From an uncultured Nitrospiraceae bacterium (GTDB taxonomy: Bacteria > Nitrospirota > Thermodesulfovibrionia > Thermodesulfovibrionales > UBA6898), in NCBI GenBank assembly GCA_963811165.1, contig CAWEQH010000004.1, positions 512,001 through 576,000 of the forward strand: 64,000 nucleotides of DNA, given 5' to 3'. The notes beneath the pieces were generated by a model. That model worked only from the letters and a program-made list of their open reading frames with translations. It ran no database searches and was not told the DNA's origin. The first letter of the stretch is position 1, and every line of letters begins with the position of its first letter. Both the position numbers and the translations under genes were made by a program. Below, piece after piece: positions 23,700-30,040 of the stretch.

Positions 23700-24260
23700 T
23701 TACTCAATAATCAGAGAACCGACTGACTCAGCCTGCCCGCCGCGTACTGGCCAAACGTTGAAGAGGCCCGCCTTACTGCCGTAATACGGTGTGCCATCCC
23801 CTGTATCGACGACCCACGCGTTGATCGCATCGTTCGCCTTCGTAGTAGACGTCCAGTTGCCGTACGACTGCACACTGATGAAGACATTCCCCTCCGTCCA
23901 CTTCGCCGTGCCTGCGTCGTTCGTCAACGACGGATAAGTGAAGCCGTATCTGTTAGCCTGGGTGACCATCGCCATCAACTCGACCTTAGTAGGCAGCCGC
24001 CAGTCCCCTTCACGTGAATTATCATATAAGTCGCACTCTTGGGGGGCAAGGCCCTTAACCCATGCCATGGCGTCATGCCAACTAAGATATGGCATGCAGT
24101 GTGCATTCTGGAGCCATATCAGGCCTGTCCTGCAATCGGTAACCGTTCCATCGGCATTGTTCACATACCTCACACTGTTGCATTCATCAGCATAGGCCCA
24201 AGTCCCGAACAACACCAAAACTAACGACAATACTATGATCCTTCCAACCTTCATACTCAT
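23700..24260 (-). CDS. Secreted DUF1566 (Lcl C-terminal, CLec-like) domain protein
   Basis: Signal peptide; NADGTVTDCRTGLIW, W.DA, DWRLPTKVEL, WTST, AW.V, VWPVRGG; GGAGG RBS before 24260. Confidence 0.9.
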   Translation of the reverse strand: MSMKVGRIIVLSLVLVLFGTWAYADECNSVRYVNNADGTVTDCRTGLIWLQNAHCMPYLSWHDAMAWVKGLAPQECDLYDNSREGDWRLPTKVELMAMVTQANRYGFTYPSLTNDAGTAKWTEGNVFISVQSYGNWTSTTKANDAINAWVVDTGDGTPYYGSKAGLFNVWPVRGGQAESVGSLIIE

Positions 24261-24586
24261 CCCTCCCTCTGTCTGAAAAATTGGCCTTAAACCACGGCAG
24301 CGGTAACTTCGCAGATGGAAAGTGCTGATTGAGCAAACGACGTGCTTGAAATTTTGTTTTATCTCCTCCCCAGGTAGTTGCCGCAGTCTAGCAACAAACC
24401 AGTACAAAATACAATAAAAAAATCTTCCGATTCATTATTATTTCAATAAGTTTTGGCTGCGGTGCGGCATTTTTGAACATCCGATTGTTTCCGCTGGAAT
24501 ACCTCACCTCTGGCAAGAAATTGACAGTTTCGAGTACAGGAAGAAGTCGAAAAGTTTATTGAGCCTCAGCTAAACAGGCTCGCCTT

Positions 24587-25171
24587 TTATGTTTTGTCCT
24601 TGCCAAGTATACGCTCAATCCGGCGATCAGGGACCAGCCACATCAGCGCGACGAACACATAGATACTGCCCGCAATCCAAGGCTCATAAAATGCCGCCAG
24701 GATTGCAGTCCCATAGAGGACAGGTGACAGCTTTCCTTTGAGGTCACGACCGACCGCCTTCGCCAGTAGCGAGTCGTCGCCTTGGCTCGAAATAATGGTG
24801 TGCTGCAATACGAAATATGCAACTGCCGCCATAAGCAGAACGAAACCATAAAGCGCCATCGTTGCGGGAGCAAAATGATTCTCCCCCATCCAGCCTGTGA
24901 CGAACGGAAAAAGCGACAGCCAGAAGAGGAGGTGCAGGTTTGCCCACAAAACAGCCCCGGTCACATGTTGTGTGGTGTGCAACATGTGATGGTGATTGTT
25001 CCAGTAGATGGCCAGGTATACGAAGCTCAGCACGTAGCTCAGAAACACGGGCAGAAGCGGATTCAAAGCGGCAAAGTCAGCACCGTGCGGCACCTTCATT
25101 TCCAGTACCATGATGGTTATGATTATGGCGAGAACGCCGTCACTGAATGCTTCTAGTCTGTTTTTCCCCAT
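24587..25171 (-). CDS. TMEM175 family potassium channel (DUF1211)
   Basis: RLEAFSDGVLAIIITIMVLE, YWNNHHH, LFWLSLFPF. Confidence 0.93.
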   Translation of the reverse strand: MGKNRLEAFSDGVLAIIITIMVLEMKVPHGADFAALNPLLPVFLSYVLSFVYLAIYWNNHHHMLHTTQHVTGAVLWANLHLLFWLSLFPFVTGWMGENHFAPATMALYGFVLLMAAVAYFVLQHTIISSQGDDSLLAKAVGRDLKGKLSPVLYGTAILAAFYEPWIAGSIYVFVALMWLVPDRRIERILGKDKT

Positions 25172-25409: not shown

Positions 25410-26438
25410 TCAGGCGTATTCAGCCAGGTCCCTGACGAGCCGCTCCGAATCTTCCCATCCCAGACAGGGGTCGGTGATCGACTTTCCGTACACGTTTTCA
25501 GAAATCTTTTGGGAGCCTTCGACGAGATAGCTTTCGATCATAAGGCCCTTTACCTTGTTCCTGAGAGTCTTGGAATGCTGCCGGCTCCTCATTACTTCTT
25601 TGGCGATCCTGGGCTGCTCGAAAAAGCGTTTGTTCGAATTTGCGTGGTTGGTGTCGACTATGATCGCGGGGAAGAGGAGGTTTCGTTTCTTATATGCTTC
25701 CGCCAGCCTTTTAAGGTCTTCATAGTGATAATTGGGAATATTGTACCCGTAGTGGTTTACGGCGCCCCTTAATATGCAGTGGGTGAGCGGATTGCCTGAT
25801 GTCTTTACCTCCCAGCCGTTATAGACAAAGACATGCGGCAGTTGGGAGGCCTGTACCGAATTGAGCATTACTTCGAGGTCCCCGCTTGTGGGGTTCTTCA
25901 TCCCCGACGGCACATCGAGTCCGCTTATGGTGAGCCGGTGGAGCTGGCTTTCGACCGACCTTGCGCCGATCGCAACATAGCTGAGGATGTCGGCAAGATA
26001 CGGATAGTTTCCCGGATAGAGCATTTCGTCGGCCGCAGTGAGATGAGACTCCTTCATTGCGCGGATATGCATCCTTCTGATTGCCTTCAACCCGTTGACC
26101 ATGTTTGGGGCCTCGGAGGGTTTGGGCTGGTGGGCCATGCCTTTATACCCTTCGCCGGTAGTCCGGGGCTTGTTGGTATAGATGCGGGGAATAAGGAGCA
26201 GCTTCTCCTTTACCTCTTCCTGGAGTTTGGCGAGCCTCGACACGTATTCGCAGACAGGGTCTTCATCGTCGGCAGAGCACGGGCCGATTATGACGAGGAA
26301 CTTGTCGCTTTCCCTCTTGAAAACCGATATGATCTCCTTGTCCCTCTTCTCTTTGACCTTTCGCAAATCTTCCGGCAGGGAGATCTTCTCCAGGATTTCC
26401 TTTACGCTGGGAATTTCCCGCACATATTGAAAGCTCAT
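25410..26438 (-). CDS. DAHP synthase class I-alpha
   Basis: IGPCSA, KPRT, IGARS, GMKNPTSG, HCILRG, DTNHANS, YGKSITDPCLGW. Confidence 0.93.
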   Translation of the reverse strand: MSFQYVREIPSVKEILEKISLPEDLRKVKEKRDKEIISVFKRESDKFLVIIGPCSADDEDPVCEYVSRLAKLQEEVKEKLLLIPRIYTNKPRTTGEGYKGMAHQPKPSEAPNMVNGLKAIRRMHIRAMKESHLTAADEMLYPGNYPYLADILSYVAIGARSVESQLHRLTISGLDVPSGMKNPTSGDLEVMLNSVQASQLPHVFVYNGWEVKTSGNPLTHCILRGAVNHYGYNIPNYHYEDLKRLAEAYKKRNLLFPAIIVDTNHANSNKRFFEQPRIAKEVMRSRQHSKTLRNKVKGLMIESYLVEGSQKISENVYGKSITDPCLGWEDSERLVRDLAEYA

Positions 26439-26797
26439 ATTCTTTCCCTCGATTCTTTCAAGACTAAATTTACGACTTCATTTTAATATATTTTAAAAAC
26501 ATTCTGCTATCTATCTGAGGCATCCCGAAGGCTGCTGGAGATTCTCCCATTATGTTTTTTCTTGACAGAAAGTAAAAAGCGGAGTAAAATTGTCCTGTAT
26601 ATGTTTTTGGGTGATCTGACCTCGTGAAAACCATTAAAAAAACTTAATTTGACATTGGGGGATCTATTTTATAAGCTAAATCATTGAAAAAGTATTTCAA
26701 TTGCTCAGCCCGCTTCAAAGAAGATTCAAACAATAGATTTCGTAGTGGGGTTCCTGAAATTTCAGGAAGGAATATTAACTTTAAACAGGGAGGAAAA

Positions 26798-29700
26798 ATG
26801 AGGAGAAAAGTTCTCGTCACTTTACTTGTCACGGCTCTTATGGTTATGGGAGTCATGGGCATCACTAACGCATTAACGGCAACCGATGGGGCTGCCTTAT
26901 ATTCAACTGACTGTCAAATGTGTCACGGACCTTTGGGATCGTCTGCAGTCGCAGGAAGGAGCGCTGCTCAGATATCGGCTGCGATTGCGAATCCAGCTTT
27001 TCCGATGGCTGGTATGAGTACGCTTACGTCACTTACGGCTGATCAGGTTGCAGCTATCGCTGCTGCACTTGCACCTGCTCCAGCACCGACACCAGCACCG
27101 ACACCAGCACCGACACCAGCACCGACACCAGCACCGACACCAGCACCGACACCAGCACCGACACCAGCACCGACACCAGCACCGACACCAGCACCGACAC
27201 CAGCACCGACACCAGCACCGACACCAGCACCGACACCAGCACCGACACCAGCACCGACACCAGCACCGACACCAGCACCGACGCCGGTACCGACGCCGGT
27301 ACCGACATCACTCGTGCCTATGCCGCGTCCGGTGGGTCAGGTTGAATATGATAATCCCGGATCTGTCTTTCCTTCTATGAGCGCGGACCCTTCCCATGCG
27401 ATCCCGATTGGAGTCGGAACGGTCGCTCTCGGCGGAGATACGCTCAGCGTACAGGTCGGTCTTAACAAATTTAGCGGTCCGGTGGATGTATATGTGGGCT
27501 ATCGTACTTCAGCCGCTCCCGATAAAATCTCTGTGATAAAATCGGACTATACCGTTCAGGAATTTAATGTTTCGGACATAGATAATGCCGTGTTCGATGG
27601 AGCACCTGTGCCGTCAGGGTTTGAGGCATGGAAAACGGGGGTCACCGGACCGGTCAACGAAATCGTGTTGAACAGTCTGTCCATCACGGATATTGCAGCT
27701 GGTCAATACTCAGCTTATGTCTTGGTTACACCTGCAGGCGACTTCTCCCACTATTATCTATGGCAGACCGATTTTGCATCACCCCAGCATACAGAAGCTG
27801 CTCTTCCGCTGACTGCGCAGCCGCCGGTTGGTGAGCTGACATTCGGGTATTCTGCTCAGGCTTTCCCCGCGATAAATCCTGATCCTTCGCTTGCCGCGCC
27901 GATAAGTATCGGTCCGGCGGCATTGGGTGGGGACACGGTGAGCCTCCAGGTAAGCCTTGGTAAATTTGTCAGCCCGGTTGATATCTATGTGGCCTATGGA
28001 GTAGCGGCCGCACCTGACAAAATCTATCTCATGAAGTCGGATTACACTATCCAGGCGTTTTCTCTTAATGAGATATCCAATGCTATCTATCACGCAGGAC
28101 CAATGCCTAACGGGTTTGCACCCTGGAAACAAAACGTAACAGGACCGATAAACGAGATACTCCTGAACAACGTGCCGGTATCGCAGATTCCCGCAGGGTC
28201 GTACGCGCTTTATCTTATGGCTACGCCGGCAGGCAACCTTAGCAACAATACTATCTGGAGCACGGAGTTAAACGGCACTGGTTCGGACGGTGCGACCCTT
28301 TACTCTCAGAACTGCGCCGGATGTCACGGACCCCTTGCCGGCTCTACAAAGGCCGGGAGAACGGTCTCACAGATACGGGCCGCTATGAGCGCAAACCTGG
28401 GAGGAGTAATGGGCAGCCTTAACGGGCTTTCCGATTTTCAGTTACAGATGATTTCGGACGCCCTCACTCTGCCGACGCCTCCGCCTATGCCTTTGTCGCT
28501 TAAGACCACCGACGCTGCGACGCTTTATAATCAGAACTGTGCGCTTTGTCACGGTCCAAGTGATACGGCTTTCCCGGCGGGAGTTGCACAGAGCCAGGTG
28601 CAGGCGGCTATGAATTCGGTCCGCCAGATGCAGGGGGTTGGGCTCCTTCTTACACCCGATCAGGTGTCGGCCGTTGTAAATAAGATTGGTTCTCCCTCTG
28701 TTACGCCTACGCCGACACCTACACCGGGACCGACGCCTACACCGCCTCCGACTATGAATGGTGCGGCACTCTATGCGACTAACTGTTCGGGTTGTCACGG
28801 AGCGCTTGCAATGTCGGCAAAGAAAGGCCGGACTGCGGCGCAGATATCGGGAGCGATCAGTTCGGTAGGTGCGATGAGCGGGCTTAGCCTGACATCGGCG
28901 CAGATATCGGCCATCGCGTCTGCATTGGCAGGAACGACACCTATGCCTACACCGACACCTACACCGGGACCGACGCCTCCTCCGACGACAAACGGGGCGA
29001 CCCTTTATGCAAACAACTGTTCCGGTTGTCACGGGGCGCTTGCAACTTCGTCCAAGCGTGGACGCACCGCGGCGCAGATCACAAGCGCCATTAGTAGTGT
29101 AGGCCAGATGAGCGGGCTTAGCCTGACATCGGCGCAGATATCGGCTATCGCGTCTGCATTGGCAGGAACGACACCTATGCCTACACCGACACCTACACCG
29201 GGACCGACGCCTCCTCCGACGACAAACGGGGCGACTCTTTATGCGAACAACTGTTCCGGTTGTCACGGGGCGCTTGCAACTTCGTCCAAGCGTGGACGCA
29301 CCGCGGCGCAGATCACAAGCGCCATTAGTAGTGTAAGCCAGATGAGAGGGATTAGCCTGACATCGGCGCAGATATCGGCTATCGCTTCAGCGCTTAGTGG
29401 AACGACACCTACTCCTACACCGACACCTACACCTGGACCGACGCCTCCTCCGACGACAGACGGGGCGACCCTTTATGCGAACAACTGTTCCGGTTGTCAC
29501 GGAGCGCTTGCAACTTCGTCCAAACGTGGACGCACCGCGGCGCAGATCACAAGCGCCATTAGTAGTGTAAGCCAGATGAGAGGGATTAGCCTGACATCGG
29601 CGCAGATATCGGCTATCGCGTCTGCATTGGCAGGAACGACACCGACGCCTACACCTACACCTGGACCGACGAGCGGGGCCACTCTCTATGCGACCTACTG

Positions 29701-29980
29701 CGCAGGATGTCACGGCGCTCTTGCCAGCTCTCAAGTGGGCGGGGCCTCGGCATCTGAAATTTCGTCGGCGATCCACGGCGGCGTGAGTCAAATGTCCGGC
29801 TTAAGCAGCCTGACATCCACGCAGATATCTGCGATAGCATCGGCCCTTGCCGGTGTAAGAGGTTCAGATTCAGTCTTAGGTCAGGCGGCGCCTTCTTCGG
29901 GAGGGCTTCAGCCTGTGCTTTACGCCAGGATGGGGATGGAAATAAGACCGTCTAAAGGGCCTTTGTTCCTTTCAGCCTGA
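26798..29980 (+). CDS. Secreted multi-domain cytochrome c, 8 CxxCH, Pro/Thr-rich linkers (PgcA-like)
   Basis: GGAGG RBS; signal peptide; CxxCH codons start at 26912, 28313, 28538, 28784, 29018, 29252, 29486, 29699; PAPT/PT linkers. Confidence 0.9.
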   Translation: MRRKVLVTLLVTALMVMGVMGITNALTATDGAALYSTDCQMCHGPLGSSAVAGRSAAQISAAIANPAFPMAGMSTLTSLTADQVAAIAAALAPAPAPTPAPTPAPTPAPTPAPTPAPTPAPTPAPTPAPTPAPTPAPTPAPTPAPTPAPTPAPTPAPTPAPTPVPTPVPTSLVPMPRPVGQVEYDNPGSVFPSMSADPSHAIPIGVGTVALGGDTLSVQVGLNKFSGPVDVYVGYRTSAAPDKISVIKSDYTVQEFNVSDIDNAVFDGAPVPSGFEAWKTGVTGPVNEIVLNSLSITDIAAGQYSAYVLVTPAGDFSHYYLWQTDFASPQHTEAALPLTAQPPVGELTFGYSAQAFPAINPDPSLAAPISIGPAALGGDTVSLQVSLGKFVSPVDIYVAYGVAAAPDKIYLMKSDYTIQAFSLNEISNAIYHAGPMPNGFAPWKQNVTGPINEILLNNVPVSQIPAGSYALYLMATPAGNLSNNTIWSTELNGTGSDGATLYSQNCAGCHGPLAGSTKAGRTVSQIRAAMSANLGGVMGSLNGLSDFQLQMISDALTLPTPPPMPLSLKTTDAATLYNQNCALCHGPSDTAFPAGVAQSQVQAAMNSVRQMQGVGLLLTPDQVSAVVNKIGSPSVTPTPTPTPGPTPTPPPTMNGAALYATNCSGCHGALAMSAKKGRTAAQISGAISSVGAMSGLSLTSAQISAIASALAGTTPMPTPTPTPGPTPPPTTNGATLYANNCSGCHGALATSSKRGRTAAQITSAISSVGQMSGLSLTSAQISAIASALAGTTPMPTPTPTPGPTPPPTTNGATLYANNCSGCHGALATSSKRGRTAAQITSAISSVSQMRGISLTSAQISAIASALSGTTPTPTPTPTPGPTPPPTTDGATLYANNCSGCHGALATSSKRGRTAAQITSAISSVSQMRGISLTSAQISAIASALAGTTPTPTPTPGPTSGATLYATYCAGCHGALASSQVGGASASEISSAIHGGVSQMSGLSSLTSTQISAIASALAGVRGSDSVLGQAAPSSGGLQPVLYARMGMEIRPSKGPLFLSA
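27080..27307 (+). repeat. 12-bp coding tandem repeat (CCAGCACCGACA)
   Basis: 16 perfect copies, 1 synonymous variant and 2 CCGGTACCGAC(G/A) copies; encodes (PAPT)17(PVPT)2. Confidence 0.95.
28740..29680 (+). repeat. 234-bp coding tandem repeat (78-aa cytochrome module), about 4 copies
   Basis: Heme motifs and GATGAG anchors (28873, 29107, 29341, 29575) recur exactly 234 bp apart with near-identical DNA. Confidence 0.92.
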
Positions 29981-30007
29981 CATTATTACACGGTCATCTG
30001 ACCACCA

Positions 30008-30040
30008 AAAAGGGGGACATGTCATGTCCCCCTTTTTTAT
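30008..30040. terminator. Bidirectional intrinsic terminator
   Basis: AAAAAAGGGGGACATG-t-CATGTCCCCCTTTTTT; between the cytochrome and paaK. Confidence 0.85.

What the first reader, a model, noticed from the sequence alone, without database searches (positions are those of the whole stretch)
26798..29980. Giant beads-on-a-string octaheme cytochrome: an expanded PgcA-like architecture
Seen: signal peptide without an obvious lipobox, one mono-heme domain, an ~80-aa PAPT tether, two copies of an unknown ~155-aa domain, then seven more mono-heme domains, mostly joined by PT linkers. Each domain has (G)A.LY...CxxCHG and a downstream Met in an A(I/M)...M motif. Established: Geobacter PgcA has three His/Met mono-heme domains joined by PT-rich linkers and aids Fe(III)-oxide reduction. 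Inference: a flexible extracellular electron carrier or mineral-binding wire built by domain amplification rather than heme stacking, in what appears to be a non-Geobacter lineage. Best candidate here for an undescribed system. It appears monocistronic with its own terminator.
Basis: partly seen in the sequence, partly recalled or inferred. Interest (0 to 1): 0.85.

Follow-up and report, generated by a model that had tools for sequence, protein, structure and literature searches.

The report
Eight-heme bead string, unnamed tag domain
This gene encodes a secreted chain of eight small one-heme cytochromes on flexible tethers, a design already known from Geobacter PgcA; it lacks PgcA's lipid anchor and iron-oxide-binding tip and instead carries two copies of an uncatalogued domain that likely holds it at the cell surface, where it would relay and store electrons.

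Summary
In detail: one intact 1060-aa ORF with a signal peptide, eight CxxCH domains, Pro/Thr tethers and two ~155-aa unknown domains ('U'). The beads are true homologues of PgcA domains I/II (8QJ6: E 2.6e-12, TM 0.94). The class is already named ('microbial heme-tethered redox strings'), and eight is no record: 48 of 119 listed homologues have eight or more beads, up to 12, from Geobacter relatives to Methanoperedens. This is not a PgcA orthologue. It lacks the lipobox, the N-terminal domain and the bis-His domain III, which is the only PgcA domain that binds and reduces Fe(III) oxide; a direct iron-oxide wire is therefore unlikely. The new part is U: an Ig-like beta-sandwich in no Pfam or NCBIfam family. 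It is nearly confined to one Thermodesulfovibrionales family, occurs in eight other genes of this genome, and rides mostly at the ends of unrelated secreted proteins that seldom have lipoboxes. Best reading: a tethered electron relay and buffer, likely exported and held at the surface through U (0.5). Main rival: a periplasmic carrier (0.3). Location, function of U and direction of electron flow are untested.

The parts
26636..26677 (+). Likely sigma-70 promoter: A-tract, TTGACA (26649-26654), 17 nt, TAAGCT (26672-26677)
   Evidence: Conserved in position and sequence in orthologues G004 and G005 (sequence). The scan's best hit at 26562-26590 (3 found against 2.9 expected) is not conserved in that alignment.
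26752..26769 (+). 5' leader hairpin about 20 nt before the ribosome-binding site; role unknown
   Evidence: A hairpin of different sequence is predicted at the same place in G000, G004 and G005. No Rfam match up to E 5, so no GEMM riboswitch.
26798..26869 (+). Sec signal peptide (about residues 1-24; cleavage site inferred), no lipobox
   Evidence: Basic N-terminus plus hydrophobic stretch, no Cys outside heme motifs. GGGAGGAAAAATG start conserved in three orthologues.
26882..27070 (+). Heme bead D1 (His43/Met70), PgcA domain I/II type
   Evidence: 38-56% identical to the other beads.
27071..27316 (+). 82-residue (PAPT)n tether
   Evidence: 19.0 x 12 bp, 98% matches; length.
27317..27778 (+). 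U1: uncatalogued Ig-like beta-sandwich module
   Evidence: AlphaFold pLDDT 96. Best structural match Z 6.2, generic Ig/Fn3-like domains. No Pfam or NCBIfam family. 735 representatives.
27812..28273 (+). U2: second copy of the module
   Evidence: 49% identical to U1.
28283..28465 (+). Heme bead D2 (His510/Met538), 4 residues after U2
   Evidence: Aligns to 8QJ6.
28508..28687 (+). Heme bead D3 (His585/Met611), the most divergent bead
   Evidence: 34-42% identity to the others.
28754..29635 (+). Beads D4-D7: recent 234-bp tandem expansion, basic (3-4 K/R, 0-1 D/E each), joined by 21-residue PT linkers
   Evidence: 4.1 copies of period 234; 78-96% amino-acid identity. D5 against 8QJ6: E 2.6e-12, TM 0.94, rmsd 1.0.
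29669..29854 (+). Heme bead D8 (His972/Met999)
   Evidence: close match in the G002 orthologue.
29849..29980 (+). 43-residue C-terminal tail (..ARM.M..) in place of the diheme cap of other orthologues; role unknown
   Evidence: Same length and stop in G002; similar tails in P0005 and P0194; no NCBIfam match; no transmembrane segment.
30007..30038 (+). Intrinsic terminator, likely bidirectional (A-run before, U-run after)
   Evidence: z -4.63; a similar G/C hairpin with T-run follows the G002 stop.

Best explanation
The gene encodes a signal-peptide-bearing chain of eight PgcA-domain-I/II-type one-heme beads on Pro/Thr tethers that likely passes and stores electrons by tethered collisions, and its two U domains likely serve as the export or surface-holding tag in place of PgcA's lipid anchor. 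Steps: (1) Sec export and heme attachment. The signal peptide and CxxCH motifs are shown; a system II ResB gene is present; maturation itself is inferred. (2) Each bead folds like PgcA I/II with His/Met ligation. Homology and the model are shown; ligation is inferred from Met at His+26 to +28. (3) Beads move independently and exchange electrons on contact, as measured for PgcA (inferred). The 211 linker residues give 65-76 nm of contour at most, against 18 nm measured for PgcA. (4) The folded protein is likely exported by one of two type II secretion systems and held by U1-U2, with D1 on an 82-residue arm on one side and seven beads on the other (inferred; the weakest step). (5) It would trade electrons with the host's porin-cytochrome conduits and give them to Mn(IV) oxide, soluble Fe(III), other high-potential acceptors or partner cytochromes, but not directly to Fe(III) oxyhydroxide, since it has no domain III (inferred from PgcA domain assays). 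The direction of flow is not determined.
For: Bead homology; PDB ids tied to PgcA in PMC11520253. Met present in 863 of 867 family beads. Tethered-diffusion mechanism of PgcA. Domains I/II reduce birnessite, Fe(III) citrate and chromate but not akaganeite. U behaves like a tag. Of the top 150 of 735 representatives, 67 have U within 8 residues of the C-terminus, 37 directly after a signal peptide, 14 at a truncated N-terminus and 32 internally; 0 of 150 have a C-terminal membrane segment. Partners in the 88 scanned include subtilases, M10 peptidase, fn3/PKD/Big, beta-propellers, Lcl_C, lectins and cupredoxins, and choice-of-anchor Q. A crude lipobox rule of 95 signal-bearing U proteins but 58 of 100 U-less heme strings. 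By eye, 0 clear and 2 doubtful of 11 U-bearing cytochrome starts have a lipobox, against 5 of 8 U-less Nitrospirota strings (two of the 5 come from one genome). Strings elsewhere carry known surface signals: JDVT-CTERM in L041, E 1.1e-10, and a C-terminal membrane segment in P0260. They also occur in the archaeon Methanoperedens, which has no periplasm (my own knowledge). Host machinery: ResB; two T2SS clusters, one back-to-back with a porin and three multiheme cytochromes; a DmsE/MtrA-like plus MtrB-like pair.
Against: No test of location or activity. PgcA without its lipobox is retained in the periplasm. U is internal in this protein and in 32 of 150, unlike strict C-terminal sorting tags. 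3 of 8 U-less Nitrospirota strings also lack a lipobox, so the swap is not a rule. No gene tracks U. A GspD match over the cut-off occurs in 34 of 41 relatives with or without U. The FadL/PorV-like barrel seen beside U genes in 3 of 20 loci also lies beside U-less proteins and was not found in U-bearing G002, G006 and G014. The gene has no conduit neighbours. One gspD of the host is split into two ORFs. Kin share traits, so the counts are not independent.
Confidence: 0.5

Rival explanations
1. It is a periplasmic electron shuttle and capacitor: without a lipobox it stays in the periplasm, U binds peptidoglycan or another envelope structure or is only a spacer, and the beads link inner-membrane quinol oxidases to outer-membrane conduits or terminal reductases.
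For: A lipobox deletion keeps PgcA in the periplasm, where it rescues Fe(III) citrate reduction (10.1101/2022.08.12.503762). No lipobox, no PgcA N-domain, no domain III. No dedicated export partner found. Cupredoxins, often periplasmic, also carry U.
Against: Most identified U passengers are types usually found outside the cell (judgement from my own knowledge). A 65-76 nm contour exceeds a typical periplasm of about 20-30 nm (my own knowledge). Related strings carry surface signals and occur in an archaeon.
Confidence: 0.3
2. It is a direct Fe(III)-oxide-binding wire: the PT/PAPT tracts grip the mineral and the beads reduce it.
For: PMC10570954 argues that PT stretches drive oxide binding of full-length PgcA. 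Basic D4-D7 surfaces. 49 of 119 homologues also end without a further heme cap, so capless strings are a normal form.
Against: Domains I/II neither bind nor reduce akaganeite, and PMC11520253 found no contribution of (PT)x to binding. No domain III hit. All eight beads lack the His+7 acid proposed to keep the potential low.
Confidence: 0.12
3. It works mainly inward, collecting electrons from Fe(II), reduced sulfur, humics or partner cells for nitrate, nitrite or sulfate respiration.
For: Long strings occur in proteins labelled Sideroxydans and Sideroxyarcus (Fe(II) oxidisers by my own knowledge). The host has dsrAB and dsrMK. A Thermodesulfovibrionia lineage has an Fe(II)-oxidising Cyc2 (PMC13647500). 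His/Met hemes without the acid may sit at higher potential (inference).
Against: Strings are equally common in metal reducers. No potential measured; no oxidative partner next to the gene. I did not search the host for Cyc2.
Confidence: 0.07
4. The expansion is an assembly artefact or a non-functional repeat run.
For: The host assembly shows frame splits in dsrA, gspD and one U gene. No outside contig spans D4-D7.
Against: The units differ from each other. Differences in other samples are mostly synonymous. Syntenic orthologues have 4 and 5 beads plus two U domains. The frame is intact over 3.2 kb.
Confidence: 0.01

Closest known systems
PgcA (GSU1761) of Geobacter sulfurreducens; PDB 8QJ6, 8QJG, 8QK0; type of the 'microbial heme-tethered redox strings' (PMC10570954, PMC11520253)
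   Same: Bead fold and sequence (52-56% identity, TM 0.90-0.94), His/Met spacing, PT linkers, Sec signal, stand-alone gene.
   Different: Eight I/II-type beads instead of two; no bis-His domain III; no lipobox; no match to 9I0D/9I0E, which I take to be PgcA's N-terminal domain; no His+7 acid; no GEMM riboswitch; two U domains; 82-residue PAPT arm; 43-residue tail.
Uncharacterised long PgcA-type strings (Geotalea daltonii 'lipoprotein cytochrome c, 7 heme-binding sites', Geothermobacter, Ca. Methanoperedens, Sideroxydans, gammaproteobacterial PKD-containing forms)
   Same: 4-12 of the same beads on PT linkers.
   Different: They use lipoboxes, PKD domains, JDVT-CTERM or membrane tails and often end in multiheme caps; among 47 named loci examined, U occurred only in 4 Nitrospirota-labelled ones.
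T9SS C-terminal domain and other 'choice-of-anchor' sorting domains (analogy for U; features recalled)
   Same: Ig-like beta-sandwich appended to many unrelated secreted proteins, often as the last domain with a conserved end (42 of 58 listed C-terminal cases end in Pro).
   Different: No match to any Pfam or NCBIfam model; about 150 aa; also N-terminal, internal and doubled; no cognate machinery identified.

Membership tests
Microbial heme-tethered redox strings (class) | Several separate small cytochrome domains rather than a packed heme chain | tested here: met
   Eight domains of about 60 aa, one CxxCH each.
Microbial heme-tethered redox strings (class) | Low-complexity Pro/Thr or Pro/Ala linkers between domains | tested here: met
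   Linkers of 82, 14, 23, 21, 21, 21 and 14 residues.
Microbial heme-tethered redox strings (class) | Independent tumbling and electron exchange between domains | not testable with these tools
   Shown for PgcA by SAXS and NMR; needs the same here.
PgcA orthologue | Domain I/II-type His/Met monoheme domains | tested here: met
   E 2.6e-12 and 6.4e-10; TM 0.94; Met at His+26 to +28.
PgcA orthologue | Lipobox cysteine | tested here: not met
   All 16 Cys lie in CxxCH motifs.
PgcA orthologue | N-terminal non-heme secretion domain | tested here: not met
   No hit of the whole protein to 9I0D/9I0E at E 0.001 or of the U pair at E 10, while P0217 hits them at 4e-47. That these entries are PgcA's N-domain is my inference from their name and place.
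PgcA orthologue | C-terminal bis-His domain III (mineral reductase) | tested here: not met
   8QK0 is in the library but is not hit; the last bead D8 is 67-70% identical to D4-D7 and keeps the Met.
PgcA orthologue | Acid at His+7 that hydrogen-bonds the proximal His (Glu281, Asp372) | tested here: not met
   A, T, F, A, S, S, S, Q in the eight beads; D or E in only 15 of 867 family beads.
PgcA orthologue | GEMM-I riboswitch upstream | tested here: not met
   No Rfam match up to E 5 in 26380-26900.
PgcA orthologue | Extracellular location and role in Fe(III)/Mn(IV) oxide reduction | not testable with these tools
   No RNA, protein or phenotype data available.
T9SS CTD-like sorting domain (for U) | Ig-like beta-sandwich fold | tested here: inconclusive
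   All-beta sandwich predicted; best Z 6.2, rmsd 3.4, 99 aligned, generic Ig/Fn3-like hits, none standing out.
T9SS CTD-like sorting domain (for U) | Match to CTD profile models | tested here: not met
   No family shared by the U region across 61 members in NCBIfam (E 0.01) or Pfam (E 0.05).
T9SS CTD-like sorting domain (for U) | Always the last domain | tested here: not met
   C-terminal in 67 of 150; internal in this protein.
T9SS CTD-like sorting domain (for U) | Dedicated receptor or secretion machinery that co-occurs | tested here: inconclusive
   T2SS is near-universal in the order; the FadL/PorV-like neighbour does not track U; no whole-genome profiling was possible.

The most novel reading that the evidence does not exclude
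U is an undescribed export or anchoring tag of one Thermodesulfovibrionales family that replaces the lipid anchor on many secreted proteins. Here it mounts a heme string up to tens of nanometres long on the cell surface as a swappable-tip electron relay: orthologues at the same locus exchange N-terminal and C-terminal heme caps and change bead number from 4 to 8. This would give a sulfate-reducing Nitrospirota lineage a surface electron-transfer reach not described in the papers searched.
Probability: 0.35. Interest if true: 0.7.

Novelty: new variant of a known kind. Interest (0 to 1): 0.45.

Why it matters
The string is a natural test of the PgcA model. It has eight near-identical relay beads and no mineral-reductase tip, so it can show whether long tethered chains act as capacitors or lateral relays and how rate scales with bead number. 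It extends heme strings to Thermodesulfovibrionales of soils and freshwater sediments that also encode porin-cytochrome conduits. If U is a sorting or anchoring tag, it defines the secretome of a whole uncultured family and a new way to display cytochromes without lipidation. If U is only a spacer and the protein is periplasmic, this is an ordinary long member of a known class.

Tried and rejected
- 'Record-length, undescribed architecture': rejected; 48 of 119 listed homologues have 8 or more beads, maximum 12. Only the best 120 of 233 hits were listed and only proteins of 583-1855 aa were searched, which favours long arrays.
- Riboswitch control as for pgcA: no Rfam match.
- Known family or fold for U: no Pfam or NCBIfam family (weak FosA hits at E 0.03-0.08 and PDB hits at E about 1 treated as chance). 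Foldseek gave nothing at E 0.001; VIA-align best Z 6.2. ESM Atlas gave unnamed clusters at 0.89-0.91 with low recognition, and no usable named hit.
- U self-association: complex prediction with two copies gave no answer (score 0.01); no evidence either way.
- U-specific secretion partner: T2SS uninformative. The FadL/PorV-like barrel plus MalT-like regulator cassette is not U-specific, and the regulator was not found in the host.
- Named-genome scan for U: the pattern scan found no relative, so the range of U rests on (16 of 41 relatives; 4 of 201 phylum genomes) and 5 organism-bearing names, all Nitrospirota, from 30 proteins looked up. Ranks 151-735 were not seen, and Atlas neighbours labelled Pseudomonadota suggest distant relatives elsewhere.
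- Relic of the diheme cap in the host: none (best E 0.49).
- Expression: no RNA holder listed.
- Literature searches: 'PgcA'+'Nitrospirota' 0 papers; 'PgcA'+'Nitrospirae' 2 agricultural reviews, listing only; 'PgcA'+'cytochrome'+'homologs'+'Methanoperedens' 0; 'PgcA'+'secretion domain'+'type II secretion' 0; 'heme-tethered redox strings' 1. The supplement of PMC10570954 (Fig. S1, homologue architectures) could not be read and may already show long arrays.
- The search of earlier findings by place and by sequence returned nothing.
Full report
1. Observation. The finding is one intact ORF, 26798-29980 (+), 1060 aa. Its order is: signal peptide, heme bead D1, an 82-residue PAPT tether, two ~155-aa domains (U1, U2), beads D2-D8 on 14-23-residue Pro/Thr linkers, and a 43-residue tail. 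All 16 cysteines lie in the eight CxxCH motifs, so there is no lipobox. Each bead has a Met 26-28 residues after the heme His. The flanking genes point away (DAHP synthase) and towards it (PaaK-like ligase), and a strong hairpin follows the stop (z -4.63). A TTGACA-17-TAAGCT promoter is conserved in two orthologues.

2. Is the repeat real? D4-D7 are 234-bp units that differ from one another. Contigs of 4 public runs from at most 2 studies carry pieces of the gene at 90-100% identity, bridging U2-D2 into D3 and D7-D8-stop. Of 27 differences classified, 23 are synonymous; 8 clustered ones left out at first give 4 synonymous of 6 codons, and 14 rows were not shown. The best holder may be the source sample, and no contig spans the gene, so exact copy number and the PAPT tract are not independently confirmed. 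The host assembly has frame splits elsewhere, but this ORF is unbroken.

3. The beads are PgcA domain I/II homologues. D5 hits 8QJ6 (E 2.6e-12) and 8QJG (6.4e-10), and the next entry only at 0.014. Its model (pLDDT 94.7) matches 8QJ6 with TM 0.94 and rmsd 1.0. These entries are PgcA domains I and II (PMC11520253; I read parts 1-3 of 6 and search passages). That paper shows domains I/II are His/Met and domain III is bis-His. It finds that the domains move freely up to 18 nm apart, that only domain III binds akaganeite, and that (PT)x adds negligibly to binding. PMC10570954 (passages and one section; supplement unreadable) names the class 'microbial heme-tethered redox strings' and notes homologues with multiple domains. 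It reports that domains 1 and 2 reduce birnessite, Fe(III) citrate and chromate but not akaganeite, and it argues, against the later paper, that PT stretches drive binding. PMC5732950 (passages) reports one to six CXXCH among homologues and a GEMM riboswitch.

4. It is not a PgcA orthologue. The whole protein hits neither 8QK0 (domain III) nor 9I0D/9I0E, although 8QK0 is in the library and a Geotalea homologue hits 9I0D at 4e-47. None of the eight beads has the His+7 acid, which is rare in the family anyway (15 of 867 beads). No riboswitch was found.

5. Long strings are common. A search with residues 490-1020 gave 233 hits, 120 listed. Leaving out the window's own protein, 118 of 119 have more than three beads, 48 have eight or more, and one has twelve; 49 end without a further heme cap. 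The length filter favours long arrays. Named carriers include Geotalea, Geothermobacter, Ca. Methanoperedens, Sideroxydans, gammaproteobacteria and Nitrospirota. Beads occur in 13 of 41 relatives and 21 of 201 phylum genomes. The closest named bead match is a Thermodesulfovibrionales record at 84% (L042), and the host has dsrAB and dsrMK. Two same-genus orthologues at the same locus have two U domains, 4 and 5 beads, a different N-terminal heme domain and a C-terminal diheme cap. Others share this gene's tail instead. Bead number and tips are therefore exchanged within one genus.

6. The U domain. It has 735 representatives at E 0.001, occurs in eight other genes of this genome, in 16 of 41 relatives (14 of 24 other members of the own family) and in only 4 of 201 phylum genomes. 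The 5 names that gave an organism, from 30 proteins looked up, are all Nitrospirota. It folds as a confident beta-sandwich (pLDDT 96) with only generic Ig/Fn3-like matches (Z up to 6.2) and no Pfam or NCBIfam family. In the top 150 it is C-terminal in 67, directly behind a signal peptide in 37, at a cut N-terminus in 14 and internal in 32. Partners among 88 scanned are proteases, adhesin-type and beta-propeller domains, lectins and cupredoxins. A crude lipobox rule fires for 6 of 95 signal-bearing U proteins against 58 of 100 U-less strings. By eye, 0 clear and 2 doubtful of 11 U-bearing cytochrome starts have one, against 5 of 8 U-less Nitrospirota strings; some of these loci are the same proteins under two labels or come from one genome, so they are not independent. 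One gammaproteobacterial string ends in JDVT-CTERM. This pattern suggests that U does the job of an anchor or export tag (inference). Against it: U can be internal, 3 of 8 U-less strings also lack a lipobox, and no partner gene tracks it.

7. Host context. The genome has ResB and two T2SS clusters. One lies back-to-back with a porin and three multiheme cytochromes, next to ExtH/ExtI homologues. There is also a DmsE/MtrA-like and MtrB-like pair. An export route and electron sources therefore exist, but none is linked to this gene.

8. Mechanism. Shown: architecture, bead homology, absence of lipobox and domain III, and the spread of U. Inferred: heme ligation, free tethered motion (211 linker residues, 65-76 nm at most with per-residue lengths from my own knowledge), export and surface holding through U, and exchange with conduits. 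Predicted: activity on Mn(IV) oxide and soluble acceptors rather than Fe(III) oxyhydroxide. I give this 0.5. The periplasmic reading gets 0.3, because a lipobox deletion keeps PgcA in the periplasm, where it carries electrons (10.1101/2022.08.12.503762, passages). The direct iron-oxide wire gets 0.12 and mainly inward flow 0.07 (context: PMC13647500, passages).

9. Novelty. It works like PgcA and belongs to the string class on the features I could test, but it is not PgcA. I found no paper on such strings in Nitrospirota (searches, listings only; PMC11492766 passages, list PgcA homologues in Desulfuromonadia). Earlier notes of this scan already describe ten-bead strings in other lineages and uncatalogued Ig-like terminal tags in other phyla; these are unchecked leads, and I did not test whether any of those tags is U. 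Verdict: new variant of a known kind, interest 0.45, carried mainly by the U domain and the missing mineral-reducing tip.

Noticed in passing
G000:C10:1127896-1148000 (L031): A porin gene and three multiheme cytochrome genes (two lipoprotein-like) sit back-to-back with gspCDEF, followed by ExtH- and ExtI-like genes: a likely porin-cytochrome conduit with its own type II secretion system.
   Followed up: partly
G000:C10:747400-750600 (L032): DmsE/MtrA-like multiheme gene followed by an MtrB/GSU2204-like barrel.
   Followed up: partly
G000:C10:882000-902300 (L033) and C7:2600-8400: Clusters of multiheme and CxxxxCH/CxxCH cytochromes with NHL-repeat proteins, a peptidyl-prolyl isomerase, an unassigned 684-aa protein and a 1541-aa PKD-containing cytochrome.
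   Followed up: no
G000:C10:1176470-1177900: Secreted protein with one CxxCH domain, four near-identical Cys-rich repeats and a C-terminal U domain: a second heme-plus-U design.
   Followed up: no
G000:C1:445889-448042 (L034): 718-aa, 8-CxxCH secreted cytochrome whose N-terminal heme domain (GEGP-like, with a DSDGDG motif) is the one that replaces D1 in orthologues of the window gene.
   Followed up: partly
G000:C8:231900-234200, C10:1136100-1138400, C8:170277-170911: dsrA, gspD and one U gene are split across frames, which suggests indel errors in this assembly.
   Followed up: partly
L121, L122, L124, L126: A MalT-like regulator of about 1070 aa (4 of 20 loci), usually with an OmpP1/FadL barrel (3 of 20), precedes large secreted U proteins; the same cassette precedes U-less proteins elsewhere.
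   Followed up: yes
G000:C10:663646-664224 and C4:481331-482047; L120: Small proteins made of little more than a signal peptide, a short linker and U; G002 has two within 4 kb. U may have a function of its own.
   Followed up: no
window 26752-26769: Leader hairpin kept in position but not sequence in three orthologues; possibly an mRNA stabiliser or protein-binding site.
   Followed up: partly
P0151: The public gene call for this locus is 828 aa and starts inside U1, losing the signal peptide, D1 and the tether.
   Followed up: no
L080: A Methylococcaceae locus has four genes in a row that each end in a single PgcA-type bead; Bdellovibrionota lipoproteins also carry single beads.
   Followed up: no
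window 23700-25171: An Lcl_C-domain secreted protein and a TMEM175-type potassium channel gene lie upstream of the DAHP synthase gene.
   Followed up: no
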